NCBI GenBank assembly: GCA_017524525.1
Contig: JAFXVM010000014.1
Coordinates: 5,680 to 69,679 of the forward strand
Length of the DNA stretch: 64,000 bases
Source: Alphaproteobacteria bacterium
Lineage (GTDB): Bacteria > Pseudomonadota > Alphaproteobacteria > Rs-D84
Reading direction: 5' to 3'
Shown one piece after another: positions 25,802 through 47,398 of this stretch. A program made the position numbers and the translations under genes. The first letter of the stretch is position 1. Each line of letters starts with the position of its first letter. Under the pieces are notes generated by a model. It searched no databases and was not told the origin of the DNA. It worked only from the letters and a program-made list of their open reading frames with translations.

Positions 25802-28630
25802 TTAAGGTGTTGTTCGCACTCTCCATCCTGTTGAATGGAACCCAGTTCTTGTAAATGTTCCGCTTGGGAATGCAACCGCACCATCATATGTACAAGAATT
25901 AGATTCAACCAAATTGTTTTGATTGTACCAGTTCAAAGTAATGGTTGTCGCATCACAGTATTGAACCGCGCCCAATGTTCCAAACAAATCTTTGCGGAAT
26001 GAAGAACTGTCGGTTATATTTGTGACACAAGTTTGTGCGCAATATGTTGAACATTGTGCTTGGTCGTTAAAAGTATTTTGAACTGGGGTTATATGTGCTG
26101 GTGTCACAGTCACATTGGAACCGCCCAACAACGAATACCCTGTTAAATTGCAAGAACAATCATAAGTATTGCTTGCGTTAATTGCACAGGTTGCATTACC
26201 GTTGATTTTGGTGTTATCGCTCCATTTAATTTCCCAATCACCCGGTGTCATACCCGTAGTTGCGCCTTGGTCGTTGCCAGAACTGCTGCCCGATGCGGAA
26301 CTGTCACCTGCAAGATATTTTATATTCTGGTTATAAACACCCAATATTGATTGCAACACATAATTCGACAAAGCCCCTGGGGTATTGGATGCATAACCAG
26401 TCGAACAATTCAAAGCCGTCACAGCGCAAGCGCCAATTGAATCAAGTATGCACCCAGCAACACTGCCACTGTATTCTTTACAGGTTGCGTTTGTATTCGC
26501 ATACGTTGCACCGCTTTCTTTGTTGGCATTTGTGACCCCAGTGCGTGGGTTAATAGTTGCACATACCACAGAACCAGTCTTATAACACTGTTTGTCACTT
26601 ATTGCACCTGCGGCAGAATATGGATAAGTTGTCGAACAAGCGTTAATTCCCTGATTAACGTTCTTATAGAAGAATGTTCCACCCGGACAATAAGAATTTG
26701 CAGTGCATGGTTGACATACCATCGTGTTTGCTGGCAGGTAAGTCCCCGGTTCACAAACATACTGTGCCTGGTCACACACAGGTTGTTTACCCAAAGAATC
26801 AAAAAGAAGCAAACGTGAATTTTGTTCGCGCGCTATTGCCTGTGCACAGGTCAGAGTACATTTGTCTTGACAAATTTGTTGTGTGTCGTATTCGAAAGCT
26901 TTAATCGTATTTGCAGGTGACACAGATACTGGGGTTGCGCCCAACAATGAATAGCTGTCCAAACTGCAGTTGCAATCATATTTGCCGTCGGCATTAATTG
27001 AACATGAAGCAAATCCATGAACATAGGTATTATCAGACCAAGTTAAGCGATATTCACCATTTGTCATTCCTGTTGTTGTACCTTGATTGTTAGCATAACT
27101 ACTTGGACCATTTGCACCAAGTGATAAAAAAGATATATTGGTGTTATAATCCCAAAACATATCTTGAATAACATAATTTGCAAGTGGTCCCGCGGTTGTC
27201 GCTGTATACCCCGCATCACAAGCCAACGTCATCGCACATGCACCAATCGGGTCGGTTCCGCCACCAACAGCATAAGAAGCCCCATTCCAGAACGTTATCA
27301 CAGATGCATTTGTGTTTGTATACGATGCAGTACCATGACCCGCCGTATACGGATTAAGGCTAGAGCAAGCCTTGGACCCAAGGATATAACACTGACTTTC
27401 GACTGTTGCGCCAGACAAAGAATAAACCGCAGAACCATTTACGTCGCTTGGACATGTTTTTATCCCTTGGGCATCAGAAAGTTGTGGGAATGTTCCCCCC
27501 GGGCAATAACTGCCACTTGGACAAGGTGAACAAGTTGTCGCATTAGCTGCCAAATATGTTCCCGGTTGACATGTATAGGTTATCTGTTCACATGCCATCT
27601 GTTGACCATATGTTCCCAATATCGCGAGTTCAAGACTAGGTTTGTCGTGAAATGATCTATAGCATTCATATACACAAGCATCTGCACAGTCTGTCGCATT
27701 TCCGAAAATATTCAGTGACACCCAATCAGTATCTGTTGTTGTCACTGTTGTGCCAGAATTTGTTGTATAACTGTCCATATTGCACCAACATTGTGTACCT
27801 GTGCTGGATGGGCTAAAAGTTGCATTCGGACGCGTTTCTCCATGTTCGCTGTTAGTATTATCGCATGATGTACGCATATGTATTTTTGCGCCATCATTCC
27901 AAGCATATTCCACGGTGCCATTTGTCATATTCGTCGAATCGCCAAAACCCAGTGCGACACTGCTGCTACCGTTGCCAGTTGTAGAACCACTGCGCGCGCG
28001 CCATTTCGTATTAGATTTTGATATCTTTGAAGATTGTGCAACATAATTTGCCATTGCACCATTTGTAGATGGATTTAAATTGTACCCATTGTTACAGGTT
28101 AAACTTACGATTGCACATGCACCAATTGTATTTGAAACAAGCGTTCTGTTAATCGCATATTCCCTGGCGGGTACCGAAGAACCAGAAGTTGCGTATGTCG
28201 CGGTCCCATTAACAACAGGATTAATGTTTGCACATGATGTCGTTTTGGCACTATAACACATGTTAGAATTGTCGTTTCCTGTATCAGAAAGATGGTAGAA
28301 AGACTCATGATAGTCTGAACAAGCCTTAATTCCCACATCCGATGTTTCATCAAATGTATATGTACCACCCGGACAAACATAATTTTGGGTACATGTCAAA
28401 CATGTCGCGGTTAAATGATCCAAAAATGTCCCAGGATTGCAAGTATATGTATTTGGCGTCCATCGTGCGATAAATTTTGTCGCAGCATCGGTTTCCAACG
28501 CGCTGTTTACGCTGCACATAGCGTTCACGCCATTTATTTTACCACTGGTATCAATAGTCACGGCCAAAGCAGGGCACGCAACGCAAATTGCGATAATAGA
28601 CGGAAAAAGAATTTTTTTTCTGTTATACAT
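25802..28630 (-). CDS. secreted cysteine-rich modular repeat protein with a C-terminal flg_new (Listeria-Bacteroides) repeat, family member 1 (942 aa from M19)
   Basis: Leader MYNRKKILFPSIIAICVACPALA, three ~270-290-aa Cys-rich modules, and terminal ITLNWY...SCTYDGAVAFP...TRTGFHSTGW. Confidence 0.8.
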   Translation of the reverse strand: MYNRKKILFPSIIAICVACPALAVTIDTSGKINGVNAMCSVNSALETDAATKFIARWTPNTYTCNPGTFLDHLTATCLTCTQNYVCPGGTYTFDETSDVGIKACSDYHESFYHLSDTGNDNSNMCYSAKTTSCANINPVVNGTATYATSGSSVPAREYAINRTLVSNTIGACAIVSLTCNNGYNLNPSTNGAMANYVAQSSKISKSNTKWRARSGSTTGNGSSSVALGFGDSTNMTNGTVEYAWNDGAKIHMRTSCDNTNSEHGETRPNATFSPSSTGTQCWCNMDSYTTNSGTTVTTTDTDWVSLNIFGNATDCADACVYECYRSFHDKPSLELAILGTYGQQMACEQITYTCQPGTYLAANATTCSPCPSGSYCPGGTFPQLSDAQGIKTCPSDVNGSAVYSLSGATVESQCYILGSKACSSLNPYTAGHGTASYTNTNASVITFWNGASYAVGGGTDPIGACAMTLACDAGYTATTAGPLANYVIQDMFWDYNTNISFLSLGANGPSSYANNQGTTTGMTNGEYRLTWSDNTYVHGFASCSINADGKYDCNCSLDSYSLLGATPVSVSPANTIKAFEYDTQQICQDKCTLTCAQAIAREQNSRLLLFDSLGKQPVCDQAQYVCEPGTYLPANTMVCQPCTANSYCPGGTFFYKNVNQGINACSTTYPYSAAGAISDKQCYKTGSVVCATINPRTGVTNANKESGATYANTNATCKEYSGSVAGCILDSIGACAVTALNCSTGYASNTPGALSNYVLQSILGVYNQNIKYLAGDSSASGSSSGNDQGATTGMTPGDWEIKWSDNTKINGNATCAINASNTYDCSCNLTGYSLLGGSNVTVTPAHITPVQNTFNDQAQCSTYCAQTCVTNITDSSSFRKDLFGTLGAVQYCDATTITLNWYNQNNLVESNSCTYDGAVAFPSGTFTRTGFHSTGWRVRTTP
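25949..28447 (-). repeat. three tandem Cys-rich coding modules (type A, B, B)
   Basis: Module heads Y-x-C-x-P-G-T-[FY]-L at aa 80, 370 and 642 of the track ORF. Module nt ranges are 27578-28447, 26762-27577 and 25949-26761. Confidence 0.75.
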
Positions 28631-28862
28631 ACTTTTTTTCTCTCTCGTGGTGCAATTTTTTCGGCACTGAACCTGATACAACATAAATTACACCATCTGC
28701 CCATTTTTTATAAAAATGCCAGATTTTTGCCCTTTCCAGTCCGTTTTTTTACACCAACAAGTACTATATATATGAACATCTTAATATAAATCAAAAATAA
28801 AGAAAAGAGAAAAAAAAGAAAAAAGTCGTCGAAACGACTTTTTATTTCTTGACTTGTTAACG

Positions 28863-30683
28863 TTATTTTTCTATTTTGTCTTTATCTTCATTTTTGTCAT
28901 CTTTTTCATTGGTCTTAAATTGCATATCATAAAGCATCTTGTATGCACCACATTCTATTTTTAACAAATCTTCGTGTGTCCCAGTTTCAACGATTTGCCC
29001 GTCATTGACAACAATAATCTTGCTGGCATTACGGATGGTTGAAAGTCTGTGCGCGATAACGAACACCGTTTTATCATGCATCAAATTTTCAATCGCTTTT
29101 TGAACAACGGCTTCTGATTTGTTGTCCAGTGCCGATGTTGCTTCGTCCAGTACCAATATCGGCGCATTCTTCAAAAATGCACGTGCGATTGCAACACGTT
29201 GTCTTTGACCCCCAGACAGTAAAATTCCGCGTTCACCAATTTGGGTGTCTATGCCATCTTTTAGTGTTGCTAAAAATTCGTCCAAATAAGCCAATTTGAC
29301 GGCTTTCTGTAATTGTGCTTCGCTTGCGTTTTCGTCGCCCAACATAATGTTTTCGCGAATTGTTCCTTCGAACAAGAAATTGTCTTGGAATACAACTGCA
29401 ATGTTTTGACGCAAAGATTTCAAAGTAAAATCACGAATATCGCGCCCATCAACAGTTATAGAACCAGATGTCACATCATAAAATCTGGGTAATAAATTAA
29501 CCAAAGTTGTTTTTCCACCACCAGAATTTCCAACAATAGCGACAGTTTCGCCCTTATTCACAACCAAATTAATATGTTTTAATACTGGCACATCAGGAAC
29601 ATAATTAAATGTGACATCATTAAAACTAATTTGATGTTGCATAGCAGGCATTTCTATTGCATCTTCTTTGTCTTTGATTTTTGGTTGTGCGTCCAATATA
29701 TCAAAACATGTCTCGATTGCCCAAAAAGACATAATCACAGAACTGTATGTGTTTCCAATACTTTTCATTGGCTGATAAAGCAAAATTAATGCAGTCAAAA
29801 ACGACACAAATCCGCCTGGCGTTAATTGTTTAGATAAAATTAAATACGACCCAAACCAAAGTGCCAAAGCAATACCAATCGATAAAATAACATGCATTAC
29901 AGGTGTTAGCCAACGTGTTCTTTGGAAAACTTTCATTTGTAGATTAAAGTTTTTGTGAAGTACATCTACATATCTGTTTTCTTGGTATTTTTCCAAATTA
30001 TAAGAAACGATAGTTTTGTTTCCAGAATAAGTTTCATTATATTTGGTTGTCAAACGCGACATAATAGCCATCGCATTATTTAATACGGGGGATACGCGCT
30101 TTTTAAGAGACGCCATTGGCAAAAACGCAAACAATAAAACCGCCACAGTCACAAAAGCCAATTGCCAAGAATTAATGAAAAGCACGACTATCAATGAAAG
30201 CGAAGTAAAGAATTTTTGAACAAAAGATTTAAGATTCGATAATAACCCAGCGCAAGCAGCATCTGCATTAGAATTAAATCTTATTAATATCTCTCCGGAA
30301 TTTTTAGTTGTGAAAAATTCTGTTTCAAACATTAATAATTTTCTAAATAAATCTGCCTTTAACGCGTTAGTGATTTTCCCACCAACCCATGTATTAAGAT
30401 AATTTAGTGTATACGTTAATCCACCCTGAACAGTGGTGAACGCAACAATCAGTACAGGAATATACCAACTTGACTGCATGGTTTGTTCGACCATAACTGC
30501 GTCAGTATATGGCTTTATCGCCCATGCAATAACCGCATCCATTGAACCAACTGGAATCGCCAACAACAAAGTCATTAATGCACGGAACCACACAGGCTTA
30601 ATATATGGCCACATGCGCTTATAGTTTTTAACAAACATATTTTCCAAAACACGCCGTTTCATCGCGGCAGATAATTTTTCCAT
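28863..30683 (-). CDS. ABC transporter, fused permease/ATPase (MsbA-like exporter)
   Basis: Six N-terminal TM segments, Walker A GNSGGGKTT, signature LSGGQRQRVAIARA, Walker B ILVLDEATSALD. Start is chosen at M22 (AGGA upstream). Confidence 0.85.
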   Translation of the reverse strand: MEKLSAAMKRRVLENMFVKNYKRMWPYIKPVWFRALMTLLLAIPVGSMDAVIAWAIKPYTDAVMVEQTMQSSWYIPVLIVAFTTVQGGLTYTLNYLNTWVGGKITNALKADLFRKLLMFETEFFTTKNSGEILIRFNSNADAACAGLLSNLKSFVQKFFTSLSLIVVLFINSWQLAFVTVAVLLFAFLPMASLKKRVSPVLNNAMAIMSRLTTKYNETYSGNKTIVSYNLEKYQENRYVDVLHKNFNLQMKVFQRTRWLTPVMHVILSIGIALALWFGSYLILSKQLTPGGFVSFLTALILLYQPMKSIGNTYSSVIMSFWAIETCFDILDAQPKIKDKEDAIEMPAMQHQISFNDVTFNYVPDVPVLKHINLVVNKGETVAIVGNSGGGKTTLVNLLPRFYDVTSGSITVDGRDIRDFTLKSLRQNIAVVFQDNFLFEGTIRENIMLGDENASEAQLQKAVKLAYLDEFLATLKDGIDTQIGERGILLSGGQRQRVAIARAFLKNAPILVLDEATSALDNKSEAVVQKAIENLMHDKTVFVIAHRLSTIRNASKIIVVNDGQIVETGTHEDLLKIECGAYKMLYDMQFKTNEKDDKNEDKDKIEK

Positions 30684-30863
30684 TTTGTATATCCTGTTTT
30701 TCAAACCAGATACCAGATTAGTAAATTTATAACCAAAAGTCAACATCTCATAAATTCCTAGGGTAAAGAATAAAAAATGTTTGTATATACCATTTTATCC
30801 TTGCTTTTATAGATATTTTCTATCAAAATACGCCCGGTTTAATCAACATACAAAGGAGATACC

Positions 30864-33524: not shown

Positions 33525-33540
33525 TTTTTACGATGCAATA

Positions 33541-33566
33541 AAAACCCCGATTCTTCGGGGTTTTTA
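33541..33566 (+). terminator. intrinsic terminator after ppdK
   Basis: aaaaccccga-ttct-tcggggttttt. Confidence 0.75.
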
Positions 33567-33659
33567 GTTTTTTTTGTTTTTTATGAAAATATATATTTTT
33601 TTTGTTTTTTTTAATTTTGATTTGTGTTATAATGCCACTATAAAAGGAAGGAGATTTTG

Positions 33660-35228
33660 ATGAAAAAACTATTTTTAACCTCTGGGGTTATTTTATGCAT
33701 GGCGTGCCCAGCGCTTGCAACAACCGACATTGATTATTCTAATGGCAGTTATACTGCTGGTGGTGCAACACCTACCTGTGTGGAAGATATTACTGGTCAA
33801 ACAGAACAACTTTCAACAGCTGAATTTGAAGCGCGTTGGACTCCAATACCATATACGATTGCTTTTGCAGCGGGAACAGCGGGAACACATACACCCAGTG
33901 GTTCAACAGCATCTGTGACGCCTGTCACGTTTGATAGTACCAATATCGCATTGACTGCAAATGGATTTACACAATCTGGTTATCACTTTACGGGTTGGGA
34001 ATCTCCTGTTGATTTGACGGATGGAACTGCTGCACCAGTAGATCCGGGTTATGTTTTGTATCGTGGGACCCAGGCAAATACTCCTAATGGTGATTACAGT
34101 AGTGGTACGGTGGCATCTTACGGTTATGTCCCGGCATCTGGTACAACTGTCACACTTACTGCACAATGGGCGCCAAATACATACGACGTAGTTTATAATC
34201 CTGGTACTGCAAAAAATGGTTCTACTACTCATGCGGTGTCAGGAACCGCTTATACAGATACTGCAACATATGAAGCGGCATACACTGTGTTGAATAACAC
34301 AAACAGCAATCTTGGTTTTTCGCAAACTGGTTATCATTTTACTGGTTGGCGTGCAGATAACGACATTGTGACTCCTACATCTACTGCTTTAAGTGATTCT
34401 AATACGGCGGGCGGAACGCAATTTAGTGCGGGCGCAACACCAACGTATAAAGTCCTTGGGGCTGTCAATATGTATGCTCAATGGGCACCGGATCAATATG
34501 ATATATCGTACAATAGTGGTTTACATGGCAGTGCTTCCACGGATCCGTATGAGGTCACAAATGGTTTGACATATGATTCAACATGGACACCTGCTGCTTT
34601 TGCATCAACGGGTATCACAGCTGATTCCGGATATACATTCAGTCACTGGAATACCAGTTCAGATGATACAGGAGCCACCTATGTAGCAGGTACAGAACAA
34701 GCTGCGTGGACTTCTGAACAGGGTTTAAGTTTATATGCTATATATACTGCGAATCCTTATACAATCTCGTATAATTGTGGTTCTGCTGTTTCTGGTTCTG
34801 CGTCTACTGCGGGTGGTTCTGTTCCAGGAACACAAAATGTCTCTATGGACGGTCCATATACATTGGCAGCGAATACCTGTACAATGTCCGGTTATACGTT
34901 TAACGGTTGGTCATGTCCAAACTTACCAGGAACACCGACCATGCCTGCGGACGCAGAAACAAAGACATACTTTGCAGGTGGTGCAACAGGTACATACAGT
35001 TACGCAGGCAGCATAACATGTACAGCACAATGGAAACCAAACGACATTACTTTGAACTGGTATAATGATACAGTGGCTAATGGTGGAACGGCAATTAATG
35101 TGTCTGGTACTGATGCGGAGTCTTGTACGTATGACGATACAATTGATTTGGCTCCACTGCCAACCAAGACTGGTTATCACTTTACAGGGTGGACACTCAG
35201 AACAACACCTGCGTCACAAAACCCATAA
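33660..35228 (+). CDS. secreted flg_new (Listeria-Bacteroides) repeat protein, family member 2
   Basis: SD AAGGAGA. Leader MKKLFLTSGVILCMACPALA. Five G-Y-x-F-x-[GH]-W units separated by ...AQW.P[ND].Y... junctions. Ends TKTGYHFTGWTLRTTPASQNP. Confidence 0.8.
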   Translation: MKKLFLTSGVILCMACPALATTDIDYSNGSYTAGGATPTCVEDITGQTEQLSTAEFEARWTPIPYTIAFAAGTAGTHTPSGSTASVTPVTFDSTNIALTANGFTQSGYHFTGWESPVDLTDGTAAPVDPGYVLYRGTQANTPNGDYSSGTVASYGYVPASGTTVTLTAQWAPNTYDVVYNPGTAKNGSTTHAVSGTAYTDTATYEAAYTVLNNTNSNLGFSQTGYHFTGWRADNDIVTPTSTALSDSNTAGGTQFSAGATPTYKVLGAVNMYAQWAPDQYDISYNSGLHGSASTDPYEVTNGLTYDSTWTPAAFASTGITADSGYTFSHWNTSSDDTGATYVAGTEQAAWTSEQGLSLYAIYTANPYTISYNCGSAVSGSASTAGGSVPGTQNVSMDGPYTLAANTCTMSGYTFNGWSCPNLPGTPTMPADAETKTYFAGGATGTYSYAGSITCTAQWKPNDITLNWYNDTVANGGTAINVSGTDAESCTYDDTIDLAPLPTKTGYHFTGWTLRTTPASQNP

Positions 35229-35263
35229 AACAGTCTTTGGGTATCAAAAACTTGTGTCTAAGA

Positions 35264-35293
35264 AAAACACCCCAGAACGGGGTGTTTTTTTTT
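35264..35293 (+). terminator. intrinsic terminator after 33660-35228
   Basis: aaaacacccc-agaa-cggggtgt followed by T9. Confidence 0.75.
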
Positions 35294-35506
35294 GCGTTAA
35301 AAAACTCTTGATTTTTTTTGAAAATTTTTTGTATATACGTTTTTGCGAATCGTTTTTTTGCAAAATGCCTGATTTTCTAAAAATAAAATCCCCCAGATTT
35401 CTGCGGGTTTGTCTATACATTTTTGGCAAAAATATTTTATTTTGTCAAAAATTTGGTTTATGAAATTTTTGTGATATAATTACTAGTGAAGAGAGAAGAG
35501 AGAAAA

Positions 35507-36472
35507 ATGAAAAAGATTTTCTTAACATCAACTATTGTTTTATGCATGGCGTGCCCAGCGTTTGCTGATGACCCTGTGCCACCTACGGGCATAGCAATTG
35601 TTAACGGCGTTGCGCAAAACAATGACTGCGATCACGCTACTTTGGGTGTTTATAGTGGCTCTGTTAGTTTGGAAGCACAATGGACTGCTAAACGTTACAC
35701 TGTGACATATGACAAAGGTGCACACGCTGCGAGCGGTGTTAATAATTATGTAGACTCTTATAATGAACAAACAGGAACAGGTGGTGCCAGATACGACAGT
35801 AATTATACGGCACTGACTGGTGGTGGTGCTAATGCTGCTGCATCACAAACTGGAATTTATGCTGCGCCAGGTTACAGTTTTGTTGGTTGGACCACAGATC
35901 CAACACCTACATTTACAGATAATAATTTGAATCATGCTTGGGGTGGGGCAACTCCGTGGCAGACTGATGGCAATATAACAGTTTATGCTGCGTATAGCGC
36001 GGAAGGTATTGCGATTAGATTTGATTGCAATTATCCTTCTGGTGCATCTACGACAGAAAGTGGCACAGGTCCAGCGCCACAAAGTATTTTGATACCTATG
36101 GATACTTCTGGAACGCTCAGCGCAACATGTACATTGCCGGGTTATACATTTAATGGCTGGAATTGTACGGTTGGTTTAAGCGATTCGACAAATACTGCAT
36201 ATACATTAACAGAAGGCAGAACTTCACTTATCTCGAATGGGACCACGGTGTATATTCATAATGCCGAAGGTGTCGATTGTTATGCGAATTGGACTGCGAA
36301 TACAATTACGCTTAATTGGACAGATCCTTCTGGTACCAACACATATCAGCCGGGTTCTTGTACATATGACGGCGACGTCACATTGCCTGCTAATCCTGTT
36401 AGAACGGGGTACAAATTTGTTGGATGGACCGTTGGATCAAACCAACAAGAACAACAACAAACAAATCCATAA
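35507..36472 (+). CDS. secreted flg_new repeat protein, family member 3
   Basis: Leader MKKIFLTSTIVLCMACPAFA. Three G-Y-x-F-x-G-W units. Ends ITLNWTDP...SCTYDGDVTLPANPVRTGYKFVGWTVGSNQQEQQQTNP. Confidence 0.8.
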   Translation: MKKIFLTSTIVLCMACPAFADDPVPPTGIAIVNGVAQNNDCDHATLGVYSGSVSLEAQWTAKRYTVTYDKGAHAASGVNNYVDSYNEQTGTGGARYDSNYTALTGGGANAAASQTGIYAAPGYSFVGWTTDPTPTFTDNNLNHAWGGATPWQTDGNITVYAAYSAEGIAIRFDCNYPSGASTTESGTGPAPQSILIPMDTSGTLSATCTLPGYTFNGWNCTVGLSDSTNTAYTLTEGRTSLISNGTTVYIHNAEGVDCYANWTANTITLNWTDPSGTNTYQPGSCTYDGDVTLPANPVRTGYKFVGWTVGSNQQEQQQTNP

Positions 36473-36492
36473 AAAATACATACATATTACCG

Positions 36493-37302: not shown

Positions 37303-37318
37303 ATACTATATACTGTGT
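37303..37318. promoter_or_regulatory. candidate NrdR box 1 upstream of nrdD
   Basis: atactatatactgtgt compared with the NrdR consensus acaCwAtATaTwGtgt. Confidence 0.4.
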
Positions 37319-37335
37319 CCAAAGGGAAGCGAGAG

Positions 37336-37351
37336 ACACAATATATAGTAT
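37336..37351. promoter_or_regulatory. candidate NrdR box 2 upstream of nrdD
   Basis: acacaatatatagtat. Box centres are 33 bp apart. Ends 27 nt before the nrdD ATG. Confidence 0.45.
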
Positions 37352-37377
37352 TTTTTGTCAAAAAGAAGGGGAAAAAG

Positions 37378-39426: not shown

Positions 39427-39471
39427 CAAAAAACAAAAAAACAAAAAATAAAAAAGGAAAGGAGGAATACT

Positions 39472-39651
39472 ATGAACCCACAACAAAGAACACCATGCGA
39501 AACATTTTCACGTTCAATGGGATATATTAGACCAGTTAAAAATTTTAACATTGGTAAATATGCAGAATTTTGTGAAAGAAAAACCTTTACAGAGGCGAAC
39601 TCTTTGACAGCAGGTGCACGTCACAGCGAATTATTGAAAAAGGCTGCATAA
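39472..39651 (+). CDS. stand-alone NrdD glycyl-radical segment (59 aa, not in the track), in frame with nrdD behind a single TAA
   Basis: Hand translation gives MNPQQRTPCETFSRSMGYIRPVKNFNIGKYAEFCERKTFTEANSLTAGARHSELLKKAA*. SD AAAGGAGG at 39458-39465. Confidence 0.7.
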   Translation: MNPQQRTPCETFSRSMGYIRPVKNFNIGKYAEFCERKTFTEANSLTAGARHSELLKKAA

Positions 39652-39669
39652 TAATTTTGGGTTTTATTC

Positions 39670-40374
39670 ATGAAACAAATACAAATCGGCGGTTTGGTTT
39701 CCTTTACAACGATAGATTATCCTGGGAAATTGGCCGCTGTATTATTTTTAAAAGGGTGTCCGCTTAATTGCAAATACTGTTCTAATCCGCACCTTATCCC
39801 TTTGGGCGAAGGCGAATATGATCCAGAAAAAGTATTTGATTGGCTGCGCGCGCGTGTCGGCAAATTGGAAGGCGTTGTCTTTTCAGGGGGCGAAGCGTTA
39901 ATGCAAGCGGATGCGACAATTGAATATATGAAACGTGTGCATGATTTGGGTTTTGCGATTGGTCTGCATACTAATGGTTTTTATCCTGATTTGTTAAAGA
40001 AAGTTAATGACACAGTTGATTGGATTGGTCTTGATTTCAAAGCAACGCGTGAACATTATCATGATTTAACAGGTATAGATGTTGCATACGACCGCATGAT
40101 AGAATCTTTGAAATATTGGGTATCGACTGGTCATGGATTAGAAGTTCGCACAACATGCGACCCGCGCTTTGTAAGCAAAACAGATTTGTTGGAAATCGCA
40201 CAAACAGCGTCCTGTATGGGTGCAAAAAATTTTGCTGTGCAAAAATATACACCATATCACGAATGCGAATGTCATGAAACCAGCGCGGCTGATCGCGAAC
40301 AGTTTTTCAATGACGAAGAATTAAAAAAGAACATAGAAAGTTTGTTTAACACAGTTGTATGGCGTAACAATTAA
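39670..40374 (+). CDS. nrdG: anaerobic ribonucleoside-triphosphate reductase activating protein (radical SAM)
   Basis: CPLNCKYCSNP (CX3CX2C), GVVFSGGEAL, and position next to nrdD. Confidence 0.85.
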   Translation: MKQIQIGGLVSFTTIDYPGKLAAVLFLKGCPLNCKYCSNPHLIPLGEGEYDPEKVFDWLRARVGKLEGVVFSGGEALMQADATIEYMKRVHDLGFAIGLHTNGFYPDLLKKVNDTVDWIGLDFKATREHYHDLTGIDVAYDRMIESLKYWVSTGHGLEVRTTCDPRFVSKTDLLEIAQTASCMGAKNFAVQKYTPYHECECHETSAADREQFFNDEELKKNIESLFNTVVWRNN

Positions 40375-40400
40375 ATAATGGGTTCTGTTTTTTTTGCCTT

Positions 40401-40430
40401 GCCCCCGTTATCCGTGCGGGGGTATTTTTT
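40401..40430 (+). terminator. intrinsic terminator after nrdG
   Basis: gcccccg-ttatccgtg-cgggggt followed by atttttt. Confidence 0.7.
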
Positions 40431-40446
40431 ATCAATAGATTGTTTG

Positions 40447-40476
40447 TAAAAAACAGGTGGGGAAAATCCCCACCGT
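40447..40476 (-). terminator. intrinsic terminator after the 1978-aa gene
   Basis: Minus strand reads acggtgggg-atttt-ccccacct followed by gtttttt. Confidence 0.7.
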
Positions 40477-40487
40477 TTTATTGACTA

Positions 40488-43400
40488 TTATTGTATAACC
40501 TGATAACCCATAAAGTTATACCCGGTTCGTGTTTCTGCTGTGGGTAATGTAAAGTCATCATCATACGAACATTGATTCGTGGTCATTTGAGTGTTTCCAT
40601 CATACCACGTAATATTGTAAGTATTTGGATTACACGGTGCCACAGGGTTTTTGCCGTATGAACCAAACAGGACATTTTCAACCGGTTTGTCTAATAAGTA
40701 TTCCGATAGACTGCTGTTAAGGCATTCTTTGGAACAAGTGCTGGCATCGTCAAATCCTTTAATATACACCCAATTTGAATCATTTACATTTACTGTTGAT
40801 TGACTATTTAATTGATATCCGGTCATATTAATCCAACAATGTTTACCAGTGCTGGTTGAATTAAATGTAGCATAAGATTTTGTTTCGAAATCTGTACTGC
40901 CAGCGGTTGTGTTACACGATGCGCGTCCCATAATCTTGGTTCCATTATTATATACCAATTCAAATGTTCCCGCGGTCATACCGTTTGAAGAACCAGCATA
41001 TAATTCACTAGTGCCACTGCCAGTAGAACCGTCCAATTCCAGATATTTTGTAGAAGATAAATTCAAATTTCTGGATTGATTAATATAATTAACCAATGGG
41101 CCATCTGTCGTATTCATTGCGGCATAACCAGTGTTGCAACCACTGATAGATGATACAGCACATGCACCAATGGCGGTTATTTCTAGTTCGTCAGAGAAAT
41201 ATATTCTGGTTGCTGCGGTTTGATTAGCATAGGTCACACTTGATGCGCCACGTACTGGATTTACCACAGAGCATTGTTGTGTGCTGGGGTTTTTATAACA
41301 GAACCGCTTATCTTTTGCACCTGTATCAGAATATGAGTATCCGCTTTCGCATTGTTCTTTACCTTGGTCTTTGGTCGTACTAATGTCCCATGTTCCGCCA
41401 GGGCAATAATACCCATTGCCCGGACATATCGAACATGTTGTGTTGCCCATCGCCAAATATTCACCCGGCGCACAATTATATTGTGGAATACCACATTGTC
41501 TGGTATCACCCAAATCACCAAATTCAGGGGTCATGGCAGTTTGTTTTGCACAGTCATGTGCACATTCATACTGACAATCAGACAATGTTTTATCTTTCAT
41601 TGGCGTTAATATTGTCACAGCAGGATTAACAGATACTGTGCTGCCACTGCCGATTTTATAACTGGTTAAACTGCAATGACAATCATATTTGCCGTCCGCA
41701 TTTACATCACATGATGCGGTTCCGTTAACTTCTAGATCAGTACCATATACCAATCTAAATGTTCCGTTTTGCATACCAATATAATCACCTGTGCCTTCAG
41801 CCGCGCGACCGCTGTTTACACCACTATCACCATTTATTGCACGATAATGAACTTCTTTGTTGTTGTCAAAAGGCATACCAAACACAGGTGATTCATAATT
41901 TGATAATGGACCCGCAGAACCAACCAATGTTTCACCACTGTTTTGACATGTGGCATCTGTTATTGCACATGCCCCCACCGGAACAACAGAATTCACAACA
42001 GAATCAGTATAAGTGCGTCTTGTTGCTGTGGCATTAGCATAGGTTGCATCCGCATAATCAATTTTTAACAAGTCTTTGCAGTTTACTGTTTCTTCTTTGT
42101 AACAGAAACCAATATACGCTGTGCCTTGGGCTGAATTTGGATAATTACTTAAACATTTTTCTTTGCCTTGGTCATCTAAGCTACTGGCTTGGACGTTGTT
42201 GACACCTTTGCAGTAATAACCCGCCGGGCAAATTGCACAGGTTGTTTCGTTCTTTGGTAAATAATATCCAGGATTACAAGAATACGTTGGTATTTCACAT
42301 GCCATCTGTTGCCCGTATGTCCCCAACAAAGCAGACATCATTTTATTCACTATATTTGGATTTTCTGAGAAATTCACACACTTAGATGCGCAGTCGTTTG
42401 CACATCCTGAATTTGAATCGGCTTTTTTAACGAATGCCCAATCTGAATCATTTACATTTGTCGCACTGCCACCATTTAGTTGATACCCCGTCATATTGCA
42501 CCAACAATATTTACCAGTGCTGGATGAATTAAAGGTATTATTAGATCTGGTTTCGCCAACATTAACACCATCGGTTGAATTGCAAGATGCGCGAACATTT
42601 ATCTTTGTTCCGTCTGTCCATTGAATTATGCCCGTACCGTTCGTCATACCTGTTGAATCACCGTATCCATAGGATGCAGAACTGTTCTTTCCATCATCAC
42701 CATTTAACGCGCGGTATTTACAATTCGCCTTTGAAATATTGTGCGATTGATTGACATAATTCACAAGTACCCCATTTGTCGCAGGTGTCACAACATAACC
42801 GTTCGCTGTATCGCAAGTCAGTGCGGTTATTGCACATGCACCGATGTTTTCTGTTTCTGTGCCTGGCGTATAAGCGCCATAAGATGCGGTTGTGTTCGCA
42901 TACGTCACAGATGTAGAATTTGATACTTTGTTCAAAGTTGAACAGTTGTCGGTACCCGTTTCTTTATTACATTGTGTCTCAGCCCATGAACCGACCACAG
43001 ATTTGGTGAATCCGCTTGGACAATCGTATATTCCTTGTTCTTCTGTTGTGCTGTATGAAAAGAAACCGCCAGGACAGAAATGATTGATTGTACATTGTAC
43101 ACAAGCGGTTGCTTCTTTTGGTAAATAATATCCCGGCGCGCAAGTGTATTGGCTTATGCTGCACGCTTTCTGTTGTCCTAAATCATCAAATAAAATAACG
43201 CGGATGTCTCTATTACGGGCAATATCCATTGCGCACGTCTGGGCACATTTTGATTCAGCTGCTGACTGAAGTGGAAGTGCATCATAACTGCTGGTTGTAC
43301 CCTTAGCAGGATTAACCGTCACAGCAGAACCACCAGACAAAGTATAACTGTCCATACTGCAACTACAAGCATATTTCCCATCCTTGTAAAGGTAGGATGC

Positions 43401-46379
43401 ATATCCGTGTATTTTTGCACTGCCCAAATCAACTTCGTATTCACCGTTTAACATCCCCGTGTGTGAACCTTGGTTGTTATCACCACTGTTTTCACCATTA
43501 TCACCATTTATTGCACGATATCTGATATTTGGATTTGCTGTAAATGGTACAGATTGGATTATTGATGCCGACAAAGGACTATTTGATGCCGGTTCTATGC
43601 TATAACCTGTTGGACAGGTCAGGGTCGTTATCGCACATGCGCCCGGCGTTTCTAATGCGTCGCCACCACCCAGATAGTGTAAAACATTAGTTTTTGTATT
43701 TGCGTACCCCACAGACTGACCCTCTACAGGATTAATAGTGGCGCATGACACATCCGCATTTATTTTATAACAATATTCGCTGCTTCGTGCGCCCGCCGCA
43801 GACGTATAAGTGTCGTCTGCACCTTCTGCTTTTGTACAATTTTCGGCACCTTGGTCATCGTTTTCAGAATAAGTGAACGAACCCCCAGGGCAATAAAATC
43901 CAACCTTGCATCCAGAGCAAGTTGTGTCACCCGCTGCTAAATAATATCCAGGATTGCAAGTATATGTTCCAGCGCTGCATTCCATTTGTTGTCCCAATTC
44001 ACCCAATAATAATTCTATACCCGGTACTGTTGCTGAGCTTGTGCTTTTGCTCGAACCTGTGTCTTTATTGTCGTCGCTCTTTGAAACCGACACGGTTCTT
44101 TTGTTGATAAAGAAACTATATAAACAAGAATTAACACACTCGGCTGCACATATTTGATAATCGTGCTTTTTATCTTCGAACACCCAATCAGAATCGTTTA
44201 CACTTACTGCGGATGCATTATTTAATTGATATCCCGTCATATTGCACCAGCAATATTCACCTGTATCCGTTAAATCAACCTGGTCATTCGGCAGGGAAGA
44301 AACTGTTTTTTGTTTTGTATTTGCAGTACTTGGGTCTGTATAGGTAATCTTATTACTGGTTGCGCTGCAAACCGCACGACCAAATATTTGTGTTCCATTA
44401 TTATAAGCAACAGCAAATTGTCCGGTGGTCAAGCCAGTGGTTGAAGCACTGCTGTTATCTGTTGAACCGTCAATTGCATACCATTTTGTGTTTGCCCTTG
44501 ATATGCTGGATGATTGATTAATATACGCGGATAATGCGCCATTTGTACCAGATGAAGTATAACCCGTGTTACAAGTCAACGATTGTATCGCACATGCACC
44601 CACTGGGCTGATTTCTGTTCCAATATTGTAATAATCCCTGTAATTTGCAGATGTGTTTGCATAAGTAGCGGTTCCGTTTGTGACTTTATTAAATTCGGCA
44701 CAATTTTTTGTTCCGCTGTTCCCGTAACATTGGGATTCGTGTGTAGAATTCGCATCGGAATTTGGATATAATGGTGTGCCTATGTCATCCATTTTTAAAT
44801 CTGCACAACTTTTTATACCGCAATTTTTATCGTTGCTGTATGAACATGTTGCGCCAACACAATAAGAACCCGATGGACAGCCTGAACAACTGAAACCGCC
44901 CGCCGCCAAATATTGACCCGCTGGACATGTAATTGTGTCGCTGCAGGCGCTTTCACTTGTTGAACCAGTGGCAGAGAAAGTTTGATTGCCACTTGTGTCA
45001 AGTGGACATGCGGTTCTTCCTTGGTCTGCAACGGCGCTGTATTGATAAACGTTCGCCCTTGGACAATAAGAACCCGCTGGACATGTTGCGCATTGGGTTG
45101 TTGCCTTTGGTAAATATTGACCCGCCGGACATTCATATCCAACATAACAATCGCTTTGTTCATCAGAGCCCGCATCGGAATTAGGTGTCGCAACTGGACA
45201 GTTGTTTAATCCTTGGTCACTTCCGTTCGGTGTAAATGTTCCGCCCGCGCAATAATGGTCAGCAGGGCATATCACACATTGGTTTGTCGCGCCACTAAGA
45301 TATTGACCCGCACTGCAAGTCACAGAATCAGCAACACATTCCATTTGTTTAACAAGCGAACCCAAAAGTGCAAAGTTGACATCAAGTAACACTTCAAGAC
45401 AGCCTATAGAACAATAAGAAGCGCAACGTTCATTCGAAGTGCCGCCTTCCAAAAATTTCCAAGTTGGTGCAGATATTGTTTGTGTGGAACCATTGGCAAC
45501 AGCATAACTGTCTATTTTACACCAACAATTTGCCCCCGTGGTCCCAACGGTAAATGCGTTTGCGGGACGCGAAGCAACACCACCGTCCGCCCAAATTATG
45601 TTATATTTTTCTTCGTCGCTCAGTGAATCAAAACCCGACAAATCATGTTGTGAAACCGTTGTTGTATTACAAGTCGCAACACCACTTATTACCGTACCGT
45701 CAACCCAGCCAATTTGCCATTGACCATTGGTTAATCCCGTTGCATTAAAGCTAGTTTCGTTATCACCATTCAAAGCGCGCACCTTGGTGGTTGTTCCAGA
45801 CATATTGTGCGATTGATGGGTATAATTTGCCAATGGACCATTTGTTGATGGAATCTTTGAATACCCGCTGTCGCAAGTCAATGCAGTTAATGCACACGCG
45901 CCAATGTTATCTGTTTCTTGGCCACTTGGATATATCTTGTATGCCACAGATGTTTGGGTTGCATATGTTGGTGTTCCATTTAAAACCTTGTTTATTTTAT
46001 CACAAGTATCTGTCCCTGTTTCGCTGTAACATTGAGAATAACTCCATGAACCGGCAGCAGAATTTTTATATTGGTCATCATCACATGCTTTAATACCTTG
46101 GTCGGTGCCATCAAAAACAAATGTTCCGCCCCCGCAATAATTTTTTGTTGTACATTGAACACATGTCGCGGTTGTCGCGTCCAAATATGTTCCCGGATTG
46201 CAAGTGTAAGAATTTGCCTGGTACTTTGCGAAAAATTTCAGTGTGCCACCATCACTTCCCAAACCTGTATCACAGGTTTCTTGGCTGCTTGAAGTAATCA
46301 AAGTCGATTCGGCAACCCCAGAATATACAACGAATACAGCAAATACTGATGTCAGGAATATCTTGATTTTTGTGTTCAT
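40488..46379 (-). CDS. giant secreted cysteine-rich modular repeat protein with a C-terminal flg_new repeat, family member 4 (1963 aa from M16)
   Basis: Leader MNTKIKIFLTSVFAVFVVYSGVA, six Cys-rich modules plus two head-only units, and terminal YNITWYDGN...QCSYDDDFTLPTAETRTGYNFMGYQVIQ. Confidence 0.85.
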   Translation of the reverse strand: MNTKIKIFLTSVFAVFVVYSGVAESTLITSSSQETCDTGLGSDGGTLKFFAKYQANSYTCNPGTYLDATTATCVQCTTKNYCGGGTFVFDGTDQGIKACDDDQYKNSAAGSWSYSQCYSETGTDTCDKINKVLNGTPTYATQTSVAYKIYPSGQETDNIGACALTALTCDSGYSKIPSTNGPLANYTHQSHNMSGTTTKVRALNGDNETSFNATGLTNGQWQIGWVDGTVISGVATCNTTTVSQHDLSGFDSLSDEEKYNIIWADGGVASRPANAFTVGTTGANCWCKIDSYAVANGSTQTISAPTWKFLEGGTSNERCASYCSIGCLEVLLDVNFALLGSLVKQMECVADSVTCSAGQYLSGATNQCVICPADHYCAGGTFTPNGSDQGLNNCPVATPNSDAGSDEQSDCYVGYECPAGQYLPKATTQCATCPAGSYCPRANVYQYSAVADQGRTACPLDTSGNQTFSATGSTSESACSDTITCPAGQYLAAGGFSCSGCPSGSYCVGATCSYSNDKNCGIKSCADLKMDDIGTPLYPNSDANSTHESQCYGNSGTKNCAEFNKVTNGTATYANTSANYRDYYNIGTEISPVGACAIQSLTCNTGYTSSGTNGALSAYINQSSSISRANTKWYAIDGSTDNSSASTTGLTTGQFAVAYNNGTQIFGRAVCSATSNKITYTDPSTANTKQKTVSSLPNDQVDLTDTGEYCWCNMTGYQLNNASAVSVNDSDWVFEDKKHDYQICAAECVNSCLYSFFINKRTVSVSKSDDNKDTGSSKSTSSATVPGIELLLGELGQQMECSAGTYTCNPGYYLAAGDTTCSGCKVGFYCPGGSFTYSENDDQGAENCTKAEGADDTYTSAAGARSSEYCYKINADVSCATINPVEGQSVGYANTKTNVLHYLGGGDALETPGACAITTLTCPTGYSIEPASNSPLSASIIQSVPFTANPNIRYRAINGDNGENSGDNNQGSHTGMLNGEYEVDLGSAKIHGYASYLYKDGKYACSCSMDSYTLSGGSAVTVNPAKGTTSSYDALPLQSAAESKCAQTCAMDIARNRDIRVILFDDLGQQKACSISQYTCAPGYYLPKEATACVQCTINHFCPGGFFSYSTTEEQGIYDCPSGFTKSVVGSWAETQCNKETGTDNCSTLNKVSNSTSVTYANTTASYGAYTPGTETENIGACAITALTCDTANGYVVTPATNGVLVNYVNQSHNISKANCKYRALNGDDGKNSSASYGYGDSTGMTNGTGIIQWTDGTKINVRASCNSTDGVNVGETRSNNTFNSSSTGKYCWCNMTGYQLNGGSATNVNDSDWAFVKKADSNSGCANDCASKCVNFSENPNIVNKMMSALLGTYGQQMACEIPTYSCNPGYYLPKNETTCAICPAGYYCKGVNNVQASSLDDQGKEKCLSNYPNSAQGTAYIGFCYKEETVNCKDLLKIDYADATYANATATRRTYTDSVVNSVVPVGACAITDATCQNSGETLVGSAGPLSNYESPVFGMPFDNNKEVHYRAINGDSGVNSGRAAEGTGDYIGMQNGTFRLVYGTDLEVNGTASCDVNADGKYDCHCSLTSYKIGSGSTVSVNPAVTILTPMKDKTLSDCQYECAHDCAKQTAMTPEFGDLGDTRQCGIPQYNCAPGEYLAMGNTTCSICPGNGYYCPGGTWDISTTKDQGKEQCESGYSYSDTGAKDKRFCYKNPSTQQCSVVNPVRGASSVTYANQTAATRIYFSDELEITAIGACAVSSISGCNTGYAAMNTTDGPLVNYINQSRNLNLSSTKYLELDGSTGSGTSELYAGSSNGMTAGTFELVYNNGTKIMGRASCNTTAGSTDFETKSYATFNSTSTGKHCWINMTGYQLNSQSTVNVNDSNWVYIKGFDDASTCSKECLNSSLSEYLLDKPVENVLFGSYGKNPVAPCNPNTYNITWYDGNTQMTTNQCSYDDDFTLPTAETRTGYNFMGYQVIQ
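40635..46208 (-). repeat. six tandem ~270-320-aa Cys-rich coding modules (A, heads, A, B, A, B, A)
   Basis: Module nt ranges: 45324-46208, 43965-44933, 43149-43964, 42285-43148, 41481-42284 and 40635-41480. Head-only units lie at 44934-45323. Boundaries come from my residue count of the Y-x-C-x-P-G heads. Confidence 0.75.
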
Positions 46380-47397: not shown

Positions 47398-47398
47398 T

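What the first reader, a model, noticed from the sequence alone, without database searches (positions are those of the whole stretch)
25802..46379. Dispersed four-gene family of secreted repeat proteins with conserved ends and very different cores (960, 523, 328 and 1978 aa)
Seen: the four ORFs are 25802-28630 (-), 33660-35228 (+), 35507-36472 (+) and 40488-46379 (-). Three start with the same kind of leader (K-x-[IL]-F-[LP]-[TS]-S...C-[MV]-A-C-P-A-[LF]-A), and the 1978-aa protein has a related KIFLTS... leader. All four end within 4-14 residues of the stop with one ~45-aa unit: I-T-[LW]-[NY]-W ... C-[TS]-Y-D ... [LF]-P ... [RK]-T-G-[YF]-x-[FS]-x-G-[WY]. That unit fits the Listeria-Bacteroides repeat (flg_new, PF09479). 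The two small members consist only of such units. In the two giant members the interior holds 3 and 6 cysteine-rich modules instead. The genes sum to about 11 kb of a 20.6-kb stretch and are interleaved with housekeeping genes (msbA-like, ppdK, DUF378, nrdD/nrdG). Each has its own promoter region and terminator. No T1SS, T5SS or T9SS component, usher, sortase-like or glycosyltransferase gene is adjacent. Three of the four also share an unusual purine leader GAGAGA(A)n just before the ATG, whereas neighbouring genes use GGAG or AGGA. Inference: conserved export and anchor ends with swappable cores is the architecture of variable surface or adhesin families. I know of no characterised family that combines flg_new ends with these Cys modules, so this is my best candidate for an undescribed host-interaction or surface-variation system.
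Basis: partly seen in the sequence, partly recalled or inferred. Interest (0 to 1): 0.85.

Follow-up and report, generated by a model that had tools for sequence, protein, structure and literature searches.

The report
Hypervariable secreted repeat proteins of Enterousia
Four genes of a tiny-genome gut bacterium (Candidatus Enterousia) encode exported, disulfide-rich repeat proteins that share one leader and one truncated end domain. Their middles differ strongly between strains and include a cysteine-rich domain with no annotation or known fold, so they are good candidates for attachment to a partner or host.

Summary
All four ORFs are real, paralogous genes, each with its own purine-rich ribosome-binding site and terminator. 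They share a family-specific Sec-type leader, a short N-terminal piece with one invariant Cys, and a truncated final InlB B-repeat (Flg_new) with one invariant Cys.

The two small proteins are B-repeat arrays. The two giants carry 3 and 6 modules of about 280 aa. Each module has an Ephrin_rec_like/TNFR-type head and a roughly 210-aa core. The core has no Pfam family and no PDB or BFVD fold match, although the AlphaFold model is confident (pLDDT 91).

The organism belongs to Candidatus Enterousia (order Rs-D84), which has genomes of about 0.9 Mb. The loci are syntenic across MAGs but evolve fast. In another strain the core of B523 is replaced while its flanks stay 95.6% identical.

I found no silent cassettes, recombinase or secretion/anchor genes, so a programmed variation system and an anchor role for the C-terminus are unsupported.

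Cysteine counts are even in 65 of 65 small homologues and odd in three of the four D-type relatives checked, the three that lack the N-piece. This suggests the two ends are disulfide-linked, in cis or head-to-tail. That is untested.

Verdict: an uncharacterised, lineage-specific family of variable exported binding proteins, a new variant of a known kind.

The parts
25802..28630 (-). A960 gene (942 aa): leader, N-piece, three Cys modules and a truncated final B-repeat.
28562..28630 (-). A960 signal peptide MYNRKKILFPSIIAICVACPALA. It has a K/R-rich n-region, a hydrophobic core and an A-x-A cleavage motif.
   Evidence: judged by hand, SignalP was not available
28460..28561 (-). A960 N-piece, with one invariant Cys and ending in FIARW.
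27581..28450 (-). A960 Cys module 1: Ephrin/TNFR-like head plus the new core.
26765..27580 (-). A960 Cys module 2.
25943..26764 (-). A960 Cys module 3. This module was modelled with AlphaFold2 (pLDDT 90.8).
25805..25942 (-). A960 truncated final B-repeat (ITLNW...SCTYD...TGFHSTGW plus 6 aa).
28635..28646 (-). Purine-rich leader/RBS GAGAGAGAAAAA upstream of A960.
25770..25795 (-). Terminator hairpin (CTCGC.AGAA.GCGAG followed by a T run) after A960.
33660..35228 (+). B523 gene (522 aa): leader, N-piece, four complete B-repeats and a truncated fifth.
33625..33633 (+). Extended -10 promoter element TGTTATAAT of B523. The promoter, RBS and leader block is 70% identical to that of C328.
   Evidence: repeat D9
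33720..33839 (+). B523 N-piece, with one invariant Cys and ending in FEARW.
34128..35040 (+). B523 core (repeats 2-4). It is replaced by unrelated sequence in another strain whose flanks are 95.6% and 90% identical.
35046..35225 (+). B523 truncated final B-repeat plus a short tail. It matches Pfam positions 7-41 of 65.
35265..35295 (+). Terminator hairpin (CACCCC.AGAA.CGGGGTG followed by T9) after B523.
35507..36472 (+). C328 gene (321 aa): leader, N-piece, two complete B-repeats and a truncated third.
35471..35507 (+). C328 extended -10 element (TGATATAAT) and GAGAGA purine-rich RBS.
36305..36469 (+). C328 truncated final B-repeat plus a Q-rich tail.
40488..46379 (-). D1978 gene (1963 aa): leader, N-piece, six Cys modules, two extra Ephrin_rec_like units and a truncated final B-repeat.
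44925..45335 (-). D1978 extra Ephrin_rec_like units (PF07699, 31.5 bits against a gathering score of 23.1).
40491..40619 (-). D1978 truncated final B-repeat (Flg_new, 19.9 bits when scanned alone).
46383..46392 (-). Purine-rich leader GAGAGAAAAA upstream of D1978.
40456..40474 (-). Bidirectional terminator hairpin between D1978 and nrdG.

Best explanation
The four genes belong to a family specific to Candidatus Enterousia (order Rs-D84, uncultured gut Alphaproteobacteria with genomes of about 0.75-1.0 Mb). The proteins are modular, exported through Sec and rich in disulfide bonds.

Shown: every member has the same frame.
- A purine-rich ribosome-binding site.
- A nearly invariant leader, MKKIFLTSG..LCMACPAFA.
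- An N-piece of 30-40 aa with one invariant Cys, ending in L-x-A-x-W.
- A variable core.
- A final InlB-type B-repeat that stops right after GY-x-F-x-GW. It therefore lacks the last strand of that fold. It carries one invariant Cys.

Shown: the core takes two forms. It is either 2-6 B-repeats (B523, C328) or 1-6 modules of about 280 aa (A960, D1978). Each module has an Ephrin_rec_like/TNFR-type head and a previously unannotated 16-Cys core.

Shown: the family evolves by module duplication, by repeat exchange between paralogues, and by replacement of the core between strains. The ends stay fixed.

Inferred: the proteins leave the cytoplasm, are oxidised in the periplasm, and act as exposed binding proteins. 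The likely target is a partner organism, host mucus or host cells. That would explain why their cores diversify. How they cross or attach to the outer membrane is unknown.
For: Leader.
- It is near-invariant in 71 homologues that are otherwise 25-78% identical.
- The four window genes differ at synonymous sites in the leader, so selection acts on the peptide.
- The back-translated leader occurs in 15 stretches of DNA, all from MAGs of uncultured gut or rumen proteobacteria, several of them labelled Alphaproteobacteria or Candidatus Enterousia. It heads B-repeat proteins in every complete ORF found, with 1-4 matches per MAG.

Organism.
- The Ca. Enterousia merdequi contig L016 has ppdK 94% and nrdD 93% identical to the window, in the same gene order.
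- The biology of the group is described in PMC12306168.

Export and oxidation.
- The mature parts contain an even number of Cys in 65 of 65 complete small homologues.
- Cys residues are lost in pairs within modules.

Folds.
- The C328 model (pLDDT 84) matches the InlB B-repeat structure 2y5p with probability 1.0 and target-normalised TM-score about 0.7.
- The module model is confident (pLDDT 90.8, pTM 0.81) but has no PDB or BFVD match.
- The core has no Pfam family.
- The core profile finds 363 cluster representatives, none of the ten checked carrying a name. All 8 large ones scanned also contain Flg_new.

Variation.
- Gene order is conserved across MAGs.
- Amino-acid identity to contigs L021/L022/L023 is 98% for ppdK and 83-92% for msbA. 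It is 47-83% for A960, 73-77% for C328 and 38% for B523.
- dN/dS is 0.15-0.46 for the family genes and 0.03-0.15 for the flanking genes.
- B523 has a mosaic allele in another strain.
- The slot between ppdK and nrdD holds one or two family genes of 280-561 aa in different MAGs.
- An orthologue at the A960 position has a fourth module, made by duplication of module 2.
Against: - Nothing shows surface exposure or binding.
- No outer-membrane secretion or anchoring component lies nearby, and none is known for such proteins in diderm bacteria.
- Signal peptides were judged by eye, not with SignalP.
- Gene-wide dN/dS stays below 1, so relaxed constraint could explain part of the divergence.
- D1978 is identical in four contigs (three places shown), including one independent run. 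A960, B523 and C328 recur unchanged in two assemblies. Variation is therefore between strains, not demonstrably within a clone.
Confidence: 0.6

Rival explanations
1. Split-end assembly. The N-piece provides the strand (L-x-A-x-W) that the truncated final B-repeat lacks, and the two invariant end cysteines form a disulfide. This could close one molecule on itself. It could instead join molecules head to tail into fibres or oligomers built from paralogues with different cores.
For: - The final unit matches only positions 1 to about 41-46 of the 65-position Flg_new profile, and the protein then ends.
- The N-piece ends in the LYAxW-like motif that closes every internal repeat.
- In the 45 six-Cys members, the N-piece Cys can pair only with Cys in the last two units.
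- In proteins built of Cys modules, the Cys count equals an even number from the modules plus the N-piece Cys plus the C-piece Cys.
- P0010, P0012 and P0023 lack the N-piece but keep the C-piece, and they have odd counts of 113, 63 and 23.
- Both ends are conserved whatever the size of the core.
Against: - The AlphaFold2 monomer model of C328 leaves the N-piece at pLDDT 44-53, with no strand at LEAQW.
- A profile of the N-piece does not significantly match internal repeats.
- No coordinates or multimer predictions were available, so the pairing rests on parity alone.
- D1978 has an odd count although it carries both ends.
Confidence: 0.2
2. A programmed antigenic or phase-variation system. One clone would switch cores at expression sites by recombination with donor cassettes, as in Anaplasma msp2/p44, Neisseria pilE/pilS or Borrelia vlsE.
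For: - Conserved ends flank a hypervariable core.
- The replaced B523 core in another strain contains pieces 73-82% identical at the DNA level to C328.
- The promoter, RBS and leader block is shared between B523 and C328 (repeat D9).
Against: - The window holds no promoterless copies or fragments outside the four genes.
- It has no long high-identity repeats. Repeats within the family are 60-78% identical.
- No recombinase or invertase lies nearby.
- The leaders differ at synonymous sites.
- Identical alleles recur in independent samples.
Confidence: 0.1
3. Periplasmic or envelope-internal structural proteins that are never exposed. Their fast divergence would reflect weak constraint on repetitive scaffolds.
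For: - There is a Sec leader but no recognisable route across the outer membrane.
- dN/dS is below 1.
Against: - Core replacement with strictly conserved ends points to selection for diversity.
- Ephrin/TNFR-type and B-repeat domains are typically found in extracellular binding proteins (established knowledge of these families).
- The four genes take about 1.2% of a genome of roughly 0.9 Mb, a high cost in a streamlined genome.
Confidence: 0.1

Closest known systems
InlB B-repeat / Listeria-Bacteroides repeat proteins (Pfam PF09479 Flg_new, TIGR02543; structure 2Y5P)
   Same: The repeat units of B523 and C328 pass the Pfam and NCBIfam cut-offs. The C328 model superposes on 2y5p with probability 1.0. 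The shared C-terminal unit of all four proteins is the first two thirds of such a repeat.
   Different: The host is a diderm alphaproteobacterium, and there are no LRR, GW or LPXTG parts. The leader is family-specific and nearly invariant. The final repeat is always truncated, and a conserved N-piece with a single Cys is present. Many units are longer than usual, at 75-105 aa.
Ephrin_rec_like / GCC2_GCC3 / TNFR-type cysteine-rich repeats (PF07699; ELAPOR1 structure 9VQM; protist surface antigens such as Giardia VSPs, recalled from memory)
   Same: The first ~60 aa of every module have the pattern C-x-PG-x-YL...C-x-x-C...YC-x-GG. Two units in D1978 pass the PF07699 cut-off. The module profile matches ELAPOR1 at E 0.012.
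   Different: The proteins are bacterial. Each head is fused to a ~210-aa core with 10 more conserved Cys that has no family or fold match. There is no transmembrane tail.
Variable surface protein families with conserved ends (Anaplasma Msp2/P44, Mycoplasma Vlp/Vsa, Neisseria PilE; recalled from memory)
   Same: The leader and end regions are conserved while the core is hypervariable. Alleles are mosaic between strains, and several paralogues occur per small genome.
   Different: No donor cassettes, tandem-repeat slippage tracts or invertible promoters were found. Switching within a clone has not been shown.
Pili assembled by strand complementation (chaperone-usher and type V pili; recalled from memory)
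   Same: Only by analogy: a domain that lacks one strand, plus a spare strand at the other end of the protein.
   Different: There is no usher, chaperone, lipoprotein precursor or processing protease. Complementation itself is untested.

Membership tests
Flg_new / InlB B-repeat (PF09479, TIGR02543) | Profile match above the curated cut-off. | tested here: met
   B523 scores 60.2 bits and C328 scores 44.6 bits against a gathering score of 27. TIGR02543 gives 35.6 and 37.2 bits against 20.95.
Flg_new / InlB B-repeat (PF09479), terminal unit of the giants | Profile match above the curated cut-off. | tested here: inconclusive
   The D1978 end alone scores 19.9 bits (E 8e-4) and the A960 end gives no hit. 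The aligned unit in relatives P0019, P0020, P0025 and P0017 scores 28-32 bits.
Flg_new / InlB B-repeat | B-repeat (beta-grasp-like) fold. | tested here: met
   The C328 model against 2y5p gives probability 1.0 and target-normalised TM-score 0.66-0.71.
Flg_new / InlB B-repeat | A complete domain, including the last strand (profile positions about 47-65). | tested here: not met
   In all cases examined the final unit ends at profile position 41-46 of 65, followed by 2-14 residues in the window proteins and in P0017 and P0019 (3-34 across the homologues).
Ephrin_rec_like (PF07699) | Profile match at or above the 23.1-bit cut-off. | tested here: met
   The extra units of D1978 score 31.5 bits and module 4 of D1978 scores 24.8 bits. 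Of the other seven module heads, five score 15.7-22.2 bits (below the cut-off) and two give no PF07699 hit.
EGF_MSP1_1 (PF12946) | Profile match at or above 27 bits. | tested here: not met
   A960 scores 25.9 bits.
Bacterial lipoproteins | A lipobox [LVI][ASTVI][GAS]C at the end of the leader. | tested here: not met
   Position -3 is Cys in A960, B523 and C328, and D1978 has no Cys in its leader. The second leader Cys is absent in relatives P0019 and P0020, while the P-A-F-A motif is kept. This was judged by sequence inspection; LipoP was not available.
Autotransporters, RTX/T1SS adhesins, T9SS cargo, LPXTG proteins | A beta-barrel translocator, RTX repeats, a T9SS C-terminal domain or a sortase signal. 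| tested here: not met
   Pfam and NCBIfam give no such hits for any of the four proteins. No partner genes are adjacent.
Cassette-based antigenic variation systems | Conserved ends flanking a hypervariable core. | tested here: met
Cassette-based antigenic variation systems | Silent donor cassettes or a dedicated recombinase. | tested here: not met
   None is present in the 64-kb window. The rest of the genome was not examined.
Cassette-based antigenic variation systems | Switching within a clonal population. | not testable with these tools
   This needs read-level or time-series data.
Strand-complemented pili | A dedicated chaperone/usher, or a lipoprotein precursor with a processing protease. 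| tested here: not met
   No such genes or motifs were found.

The most novel reading that the evidence does not exclude
The conserved ends may be the two halves of one split B-repeat domain. The N-piece strand of one molecule would complete the truncated final repeat of the next, and a disulfide between the two invariant end cysteines would lock the joint. Paralogues with entirely different cores could then co-assemble head to tail into surface fibres without any usher, sortase or pilin machinery. Relatives that have only the acceptor end (P0010, P0012, P0023) would act as terminal subunits.
Probability: 0.15. Interest if true: 0.85.

Novelty: new variant of a known kind. Interest (0 to 1): 0.6.

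Why it matters
Candidatus Enterousia and the rest of order Rs-D84 are uncultured gut bacteria with genomes below 1 Mb. They lack respiration and part of glycolysis and are suspected to depend on a partner (PMC12306168), but nothing is known about how they make contact with one.

These genes take more than 1% of such a genome. They are the fastest-changing genes in an otherwise conserved neighbourhood, and they look like extracellular binding proteins. That makes them concrete candidates for the contact apparatus, and useful strain markers.

The family also defines a cysteine-rich domain that is confidently modelled yet has no annotation and no fold match. It is represented by several hundred metagenomic protein clusters, and all eight large relatives scanned pair it with B-repeats.

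The cysteine counts at the two ends give a directly testable hypothesis about how the proteins are closed or assembled.

Tried and rejected
- The search for related loci with the core alignment failed because it had no conserved stretch to search with. I used a back-translated leader pattern instead.
- Foldseek of the module model against PDB and BFVD found nothing (best E 0.76 and 0.22). No AlphaFold DB library was available.
- A PDB sequence-profile search found only the ELAPOR1-like head.
- Lipoprotein reading of the CMAC motif: rejected. Position -3 does not fit a lipobox, and the Cys is absent in D1978 and in some relatives.
- Prepilin-type leader: rejected, because there is no G/F-x-x-x-E motif.
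- T1SS export through the adjacent msbA-like ABC gene: rejected. The proteins have Sec leaders, no HlyD or TolC partner is present, and the gene is conserved as an ordinary neighbour.
- An N-piece profile searched against internal repeats gave only weak matches to the last ~10 residues.
- Diversity-generating retroelement: a protein with an Mtd_N domain lies at 61590-62312, but no template/variable repeat pair appears among the window's repeats. No reverse transcriptase was found in the ORFs I scanned, and eight ORFs of 150 aa or more were not scanned.
- Silent cassettes: none in the window.
- Literature searches for Enterousia, Rs-D84 and InlB B-repeat gave no description of this family.
Full report
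**1. Observation**

The four ORFs are present as described. Public assemblies call them as genes of 942, 522, 321 and 1963 aa. A960 and D1978 are clear paralogues, 35-37% identical over more than 900 aa.

The giants match the small proteins only weakly (E 1e-5 to 6e-15). The matches lie at the C-terminal unit, and at the leader plus N-terminal piece.

Motif mapping and a module alignment confirm 3 modules in A960 and 6 in D1978. D1978 also has two extra cysteine-rich head units.

The motif GAGAGARAAA occurs only three times in 64 kb, each time just upstream of the ATG of A960, C328 or D1978. The chance expectation is 0.16. Terminator hairpins follow A960, B523 and D1978, and a candidate hairpin lies about 380 nt downstream of C328.

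B523 and C328 share a 98-nt block of promoter, ribosome-binding site and leader at 70% identity, with TG-extended -10 elements. The neighbouring genes are housekeeping.

**2. Organism**

A960 is identical to a hypothetical protein of an Alphaproteobacteria MAG. I back-translated the shared leader and scanned 185,579 species genomes. It occurred in 15 stretches of DNA, all from MAGs of uncultured gut or rumen proteobacteria. Several are labelled Alphaproteobacteria, and three come from Candidatus Enterousia MAGs.

A Ca. Enterousia merdequi contig has ppdK 94% and nrdD 93% identical to the window, in the same gene order.

Enterousia belongs to order Rs-D84. Its genomes are 0.75-1.0 Mb, it lacks the TCA cycle, respiration and part of glycolysis, and a partner-dependent life has been proposed (PMC12306168). 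The four genes (11.3 kb) are therefore about 1.2% of such a genome.

**3. Anatomy**

*Leader.* MKKIFLTSG..LCMACPAFA is nearly invariant in 71 homologues of C328 that are otherwise 25-78% identical. The four window genes differ at synonymous sites in the leader, so the peptide itself is under selection.

The leader reads as a Sec/SPase I signal. It has a K/R-rich n-region, a hydrophobic core with mean Kyte-Doolittle score 2.3-2.8, Pro at -4 and A-x-A at -3/-1. It does not fit a lipobox, and D1978 and some relatives lack the leader cysteines. This was judged by hand.

*Ribosome-binding site.* Elsewhere the family uses a conserved AAAGGAAGGAAA site, in 17 of 19 genes. B523 has that form. The GAGAGA form is a local variant, not a separate element.

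*Small members.* B523 and C328 pass Flg_new and TIGR02543. An AlphaFold2 model of mature C328 (pLDDT 84, pTM 0.71) matches the InlB B-repeat structure 2y5p with probability 1.0.

*Final unit.* In every member examined, the last unit matches only up to position 41-46 of the 65-position Flg_new profile. It then ends after a tail of 2-34 residues. It therefore lacks the closing LYAxW strand of the fold.

*N-piece.* A piece of 30-40 aa with one invariant Cys follows the leader and ends in L-x-A-x-W. That is the motif that closes every internal repeat.

*Modules.* Each giant module of about 280 aa has 16 conserved Cys.
- The first ~60 aa are an Ephrin_rec_like/TNFR-type unit. Two units in D1978 pass PF07699 at 31.5 and 24.8 bits. 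Five of the other seven heads score 15.7-22.2 bits and two give no PF07699 hit. The module profile matches ELAPOR1 at E 0.012.
- The remaining ~210 aa have no Pfam family.
- The AlphaFold2 model is confident (pLDDT 90.8, pTM 0.81).
- Foldseek finds no match in PDB or BFVD.

*Spread of the core.* An exhaustive profile search with the core finds 363 cluster representatives, 79 of them at E 1e-10 or better. The ten checked carry no name. Named hits from a second search are again Alphaproteobacteria MAGs.

The second half of the core is a domain of about 110 aa with a CWC motif and a helical hairpin. It also occurs alone, or in tandem, in small proteins.

All 8 large relatives scanned combine the core with Flg_new repeats. 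One of them also ends in the truncated unit. The combination is therefore recurrent in these relatives, not unique to this window.

**4. Variation**

Three contigs show the same gene order: ATPase, OMP, (TM2), A960, msbA, ppdK, B, C, DUF378, nrdD.

| Gene | aa identity to the window |
|---|---|
| ppdK | 98% |
| nrdD | 95-96% |
| msbA | 83-92% |
| OMP | 84-89% |
| A960 | 47-83% |
| C328 | 73-77% |
| B523 | 38% |

- dN/dS is 0.15-0.46 for the family genes and 0.03-0.15 for the flanking genes.
- In contigs L003/L004 the flanks and the first 470 nt of B523 are 95.6% identical to the window. The next ~0.9 kb has no nucleotide similarity. Identity returns to 90% exactly where the final unit begins.
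- At the protein level, residues 1-63 of B523 are identical to the L003/L004 allele and the last 48 aligned residues are about 85% identical. My estimate for the middle is about 35-40%; the overall figure is 52%. Pieces of the replacing core are 73-82% identical at the DNA level to C328.
- The slot between ppdK and nrdD holds one or two family genes of 280-561 aa in different MAGs.
- An orthologue at the A960 position has four modules, through duplication of module 2 (62% identity).
- Modules within one protein are only 27-46% identical.
- The window has no extra copies or fragments and no high-identity repeats.
- Identical alleles recur in independent samples.

**5. Cysteine counts**

All 65 complete small homologues have an even number of Cys in the mature part. 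Forty-five have exactly six: one in the N-piece, four in the penultimate repeat and one in the final unit.

Within modules, cysteines are lost in pairs: #1 with #2 in seven proteins, #4 with #5, #10 with #13, and #12 with #15. This is what real disulfides predict.

In single-module and A-type proteins, the total equals an even module count plus the N-piece Cys plus the final-unit Cys. Three relatives lack the N-piece but keep the final unit, and they have 113, 63 and 23 Cys. D1978 has 109; I attribute the odd count to an extra Cys in module 4.

The simplest reading is that the proteins are oxidised outside the cytoplasm, and that the two end cysteines pair with each other. This is an inference from parity. 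The AlphaFold2 monomer leaves the N-piece at pLDDT 44-53, so closure within one molecule is not supported by the model. A head-to-tail link between molecules remains possible and untested.

**6. Interpretation**

The best-supported reading is a lineage-specific family of Sec-exported, disulfide-bonded modular binding proteins. Their cores diversify by duplication, by exchange between paralogues and by allelic replacement. Their ends are held constant.

A role in contact with a partner or host is inferred from four things:
- the domain types;
- the pattern of variation;
- the cost of the genes in a streamlined genome;
- the proposed lifestyle of the organism.

The anchor role, and the idea of a dedicated variation system, are not. 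How the proteins pass or attach to the outer membrane is unknown.

**7. Novelty and score**

The small members are new members of the B-repeat protein class. The family frame (invariant leader, N-piece, truncated end) and the ~210-aa Cys core are undescribed. I rate the finding a new variant of a known kind, with interest 0.6.

The most novel reading still open is split-domain, disulfide-locked, head-to-tail assembly of paralogues. I give it a probability of about 0.15; it would be of high interest if true.

Noticed in passing
window 61590-63906 (-): A 240-aa protein has a Major tropism determinant N-terminal domain (Mtd_N, E 8.5e-14). It overlaps the end of a 551-aa ORF with no Pfam match. 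This may be a phage-tail-fibre-like remnant next to acetate kinase. No template/variable repeat pair appears among the window's repeats, and no reverse transcriptase was found in the ORFs I scanned.
   Followed up: partly
window 9544-13798 (-): Three consecutive ORFs (571, 378 and 416 aa) have signal peptides and no Pfam match, in a stretch with raised G+C (0.41). Two end in Phe like outer-membrane beta-barrels (…RLRLEF, …RFNARF).
   Followed up: no
window 3145-3286 and 4278-4423, next to tRNA-Ser 4417-4506: A direct repeat of about 140 nt (97% identity over 108 nt) flanks a 230-aa ORF with no Pfam match, beside a tRNA-Ser gene. It looks like attachment-site remnants of a small integrated element.
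   Followed up: no
window 47072-47421, next to tRNA-Leu 47399-47483: Tandem duplication with a period of about 258 nt (segments 100% and 97% identical). It includes a partial copy of the tRNA-Leu end at 47202-47236. It lies just upstream of D1978 and of a conserved unknown ORF at 46507-47019.
   Followed up: no
window about 39430-39670 (seen as a 59-aa gene in L025-L027): A separate 59-aa ORF with a weak NRDD match lies between nrdD and nrdG. It may be a detached glycyl-radical piece of the anaerobic ribonucleotide reductase.
   Followed up: no
window 52171-53040 (-): A 289-aa protein with a Zeta-toxin domain (E 4e-9) in an otherwise housekeeping region.
   Followed up: no
L011, L012, L013, L014 (upstream of leader genes): The palindrome-containing motif GGTTAGATCTAAC lies 20-40 nt upstream of the ribosome-binding site of five family genes in other MAGs. 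It may be an operator. It is absent from the four window genes.
   Followed up: no
P0010, P0012, P0023 (relatives of D1978; loci L028, L029): These relatives carry a different leader (MRKII..F.AFA/AWA), long arrays of Ephrin_rec_like units and no N-piece. They have an odd number of cysteines. The gene lies in a different housekeeping context (SIMPL ... RRF ... BamA).
   Followed up: partly
L021 21307-22763: A large serine recombinase (Resolvase plus Recombinase domains) lies about 8.5 kb from the A960 orthologue in one related MAG. It is absent from the corresponding part of the window.
   Followed up: no
window 24702-25316 (-): The 204-aa outer-membrane beta-barrel protein next to A960 has a leader (MKSKIMLTSVAALLVSVAGANA) that shares the K-x-[IM]-L-T-S start with the family leader, but not the CMACPAFA part.
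   Followed up: no
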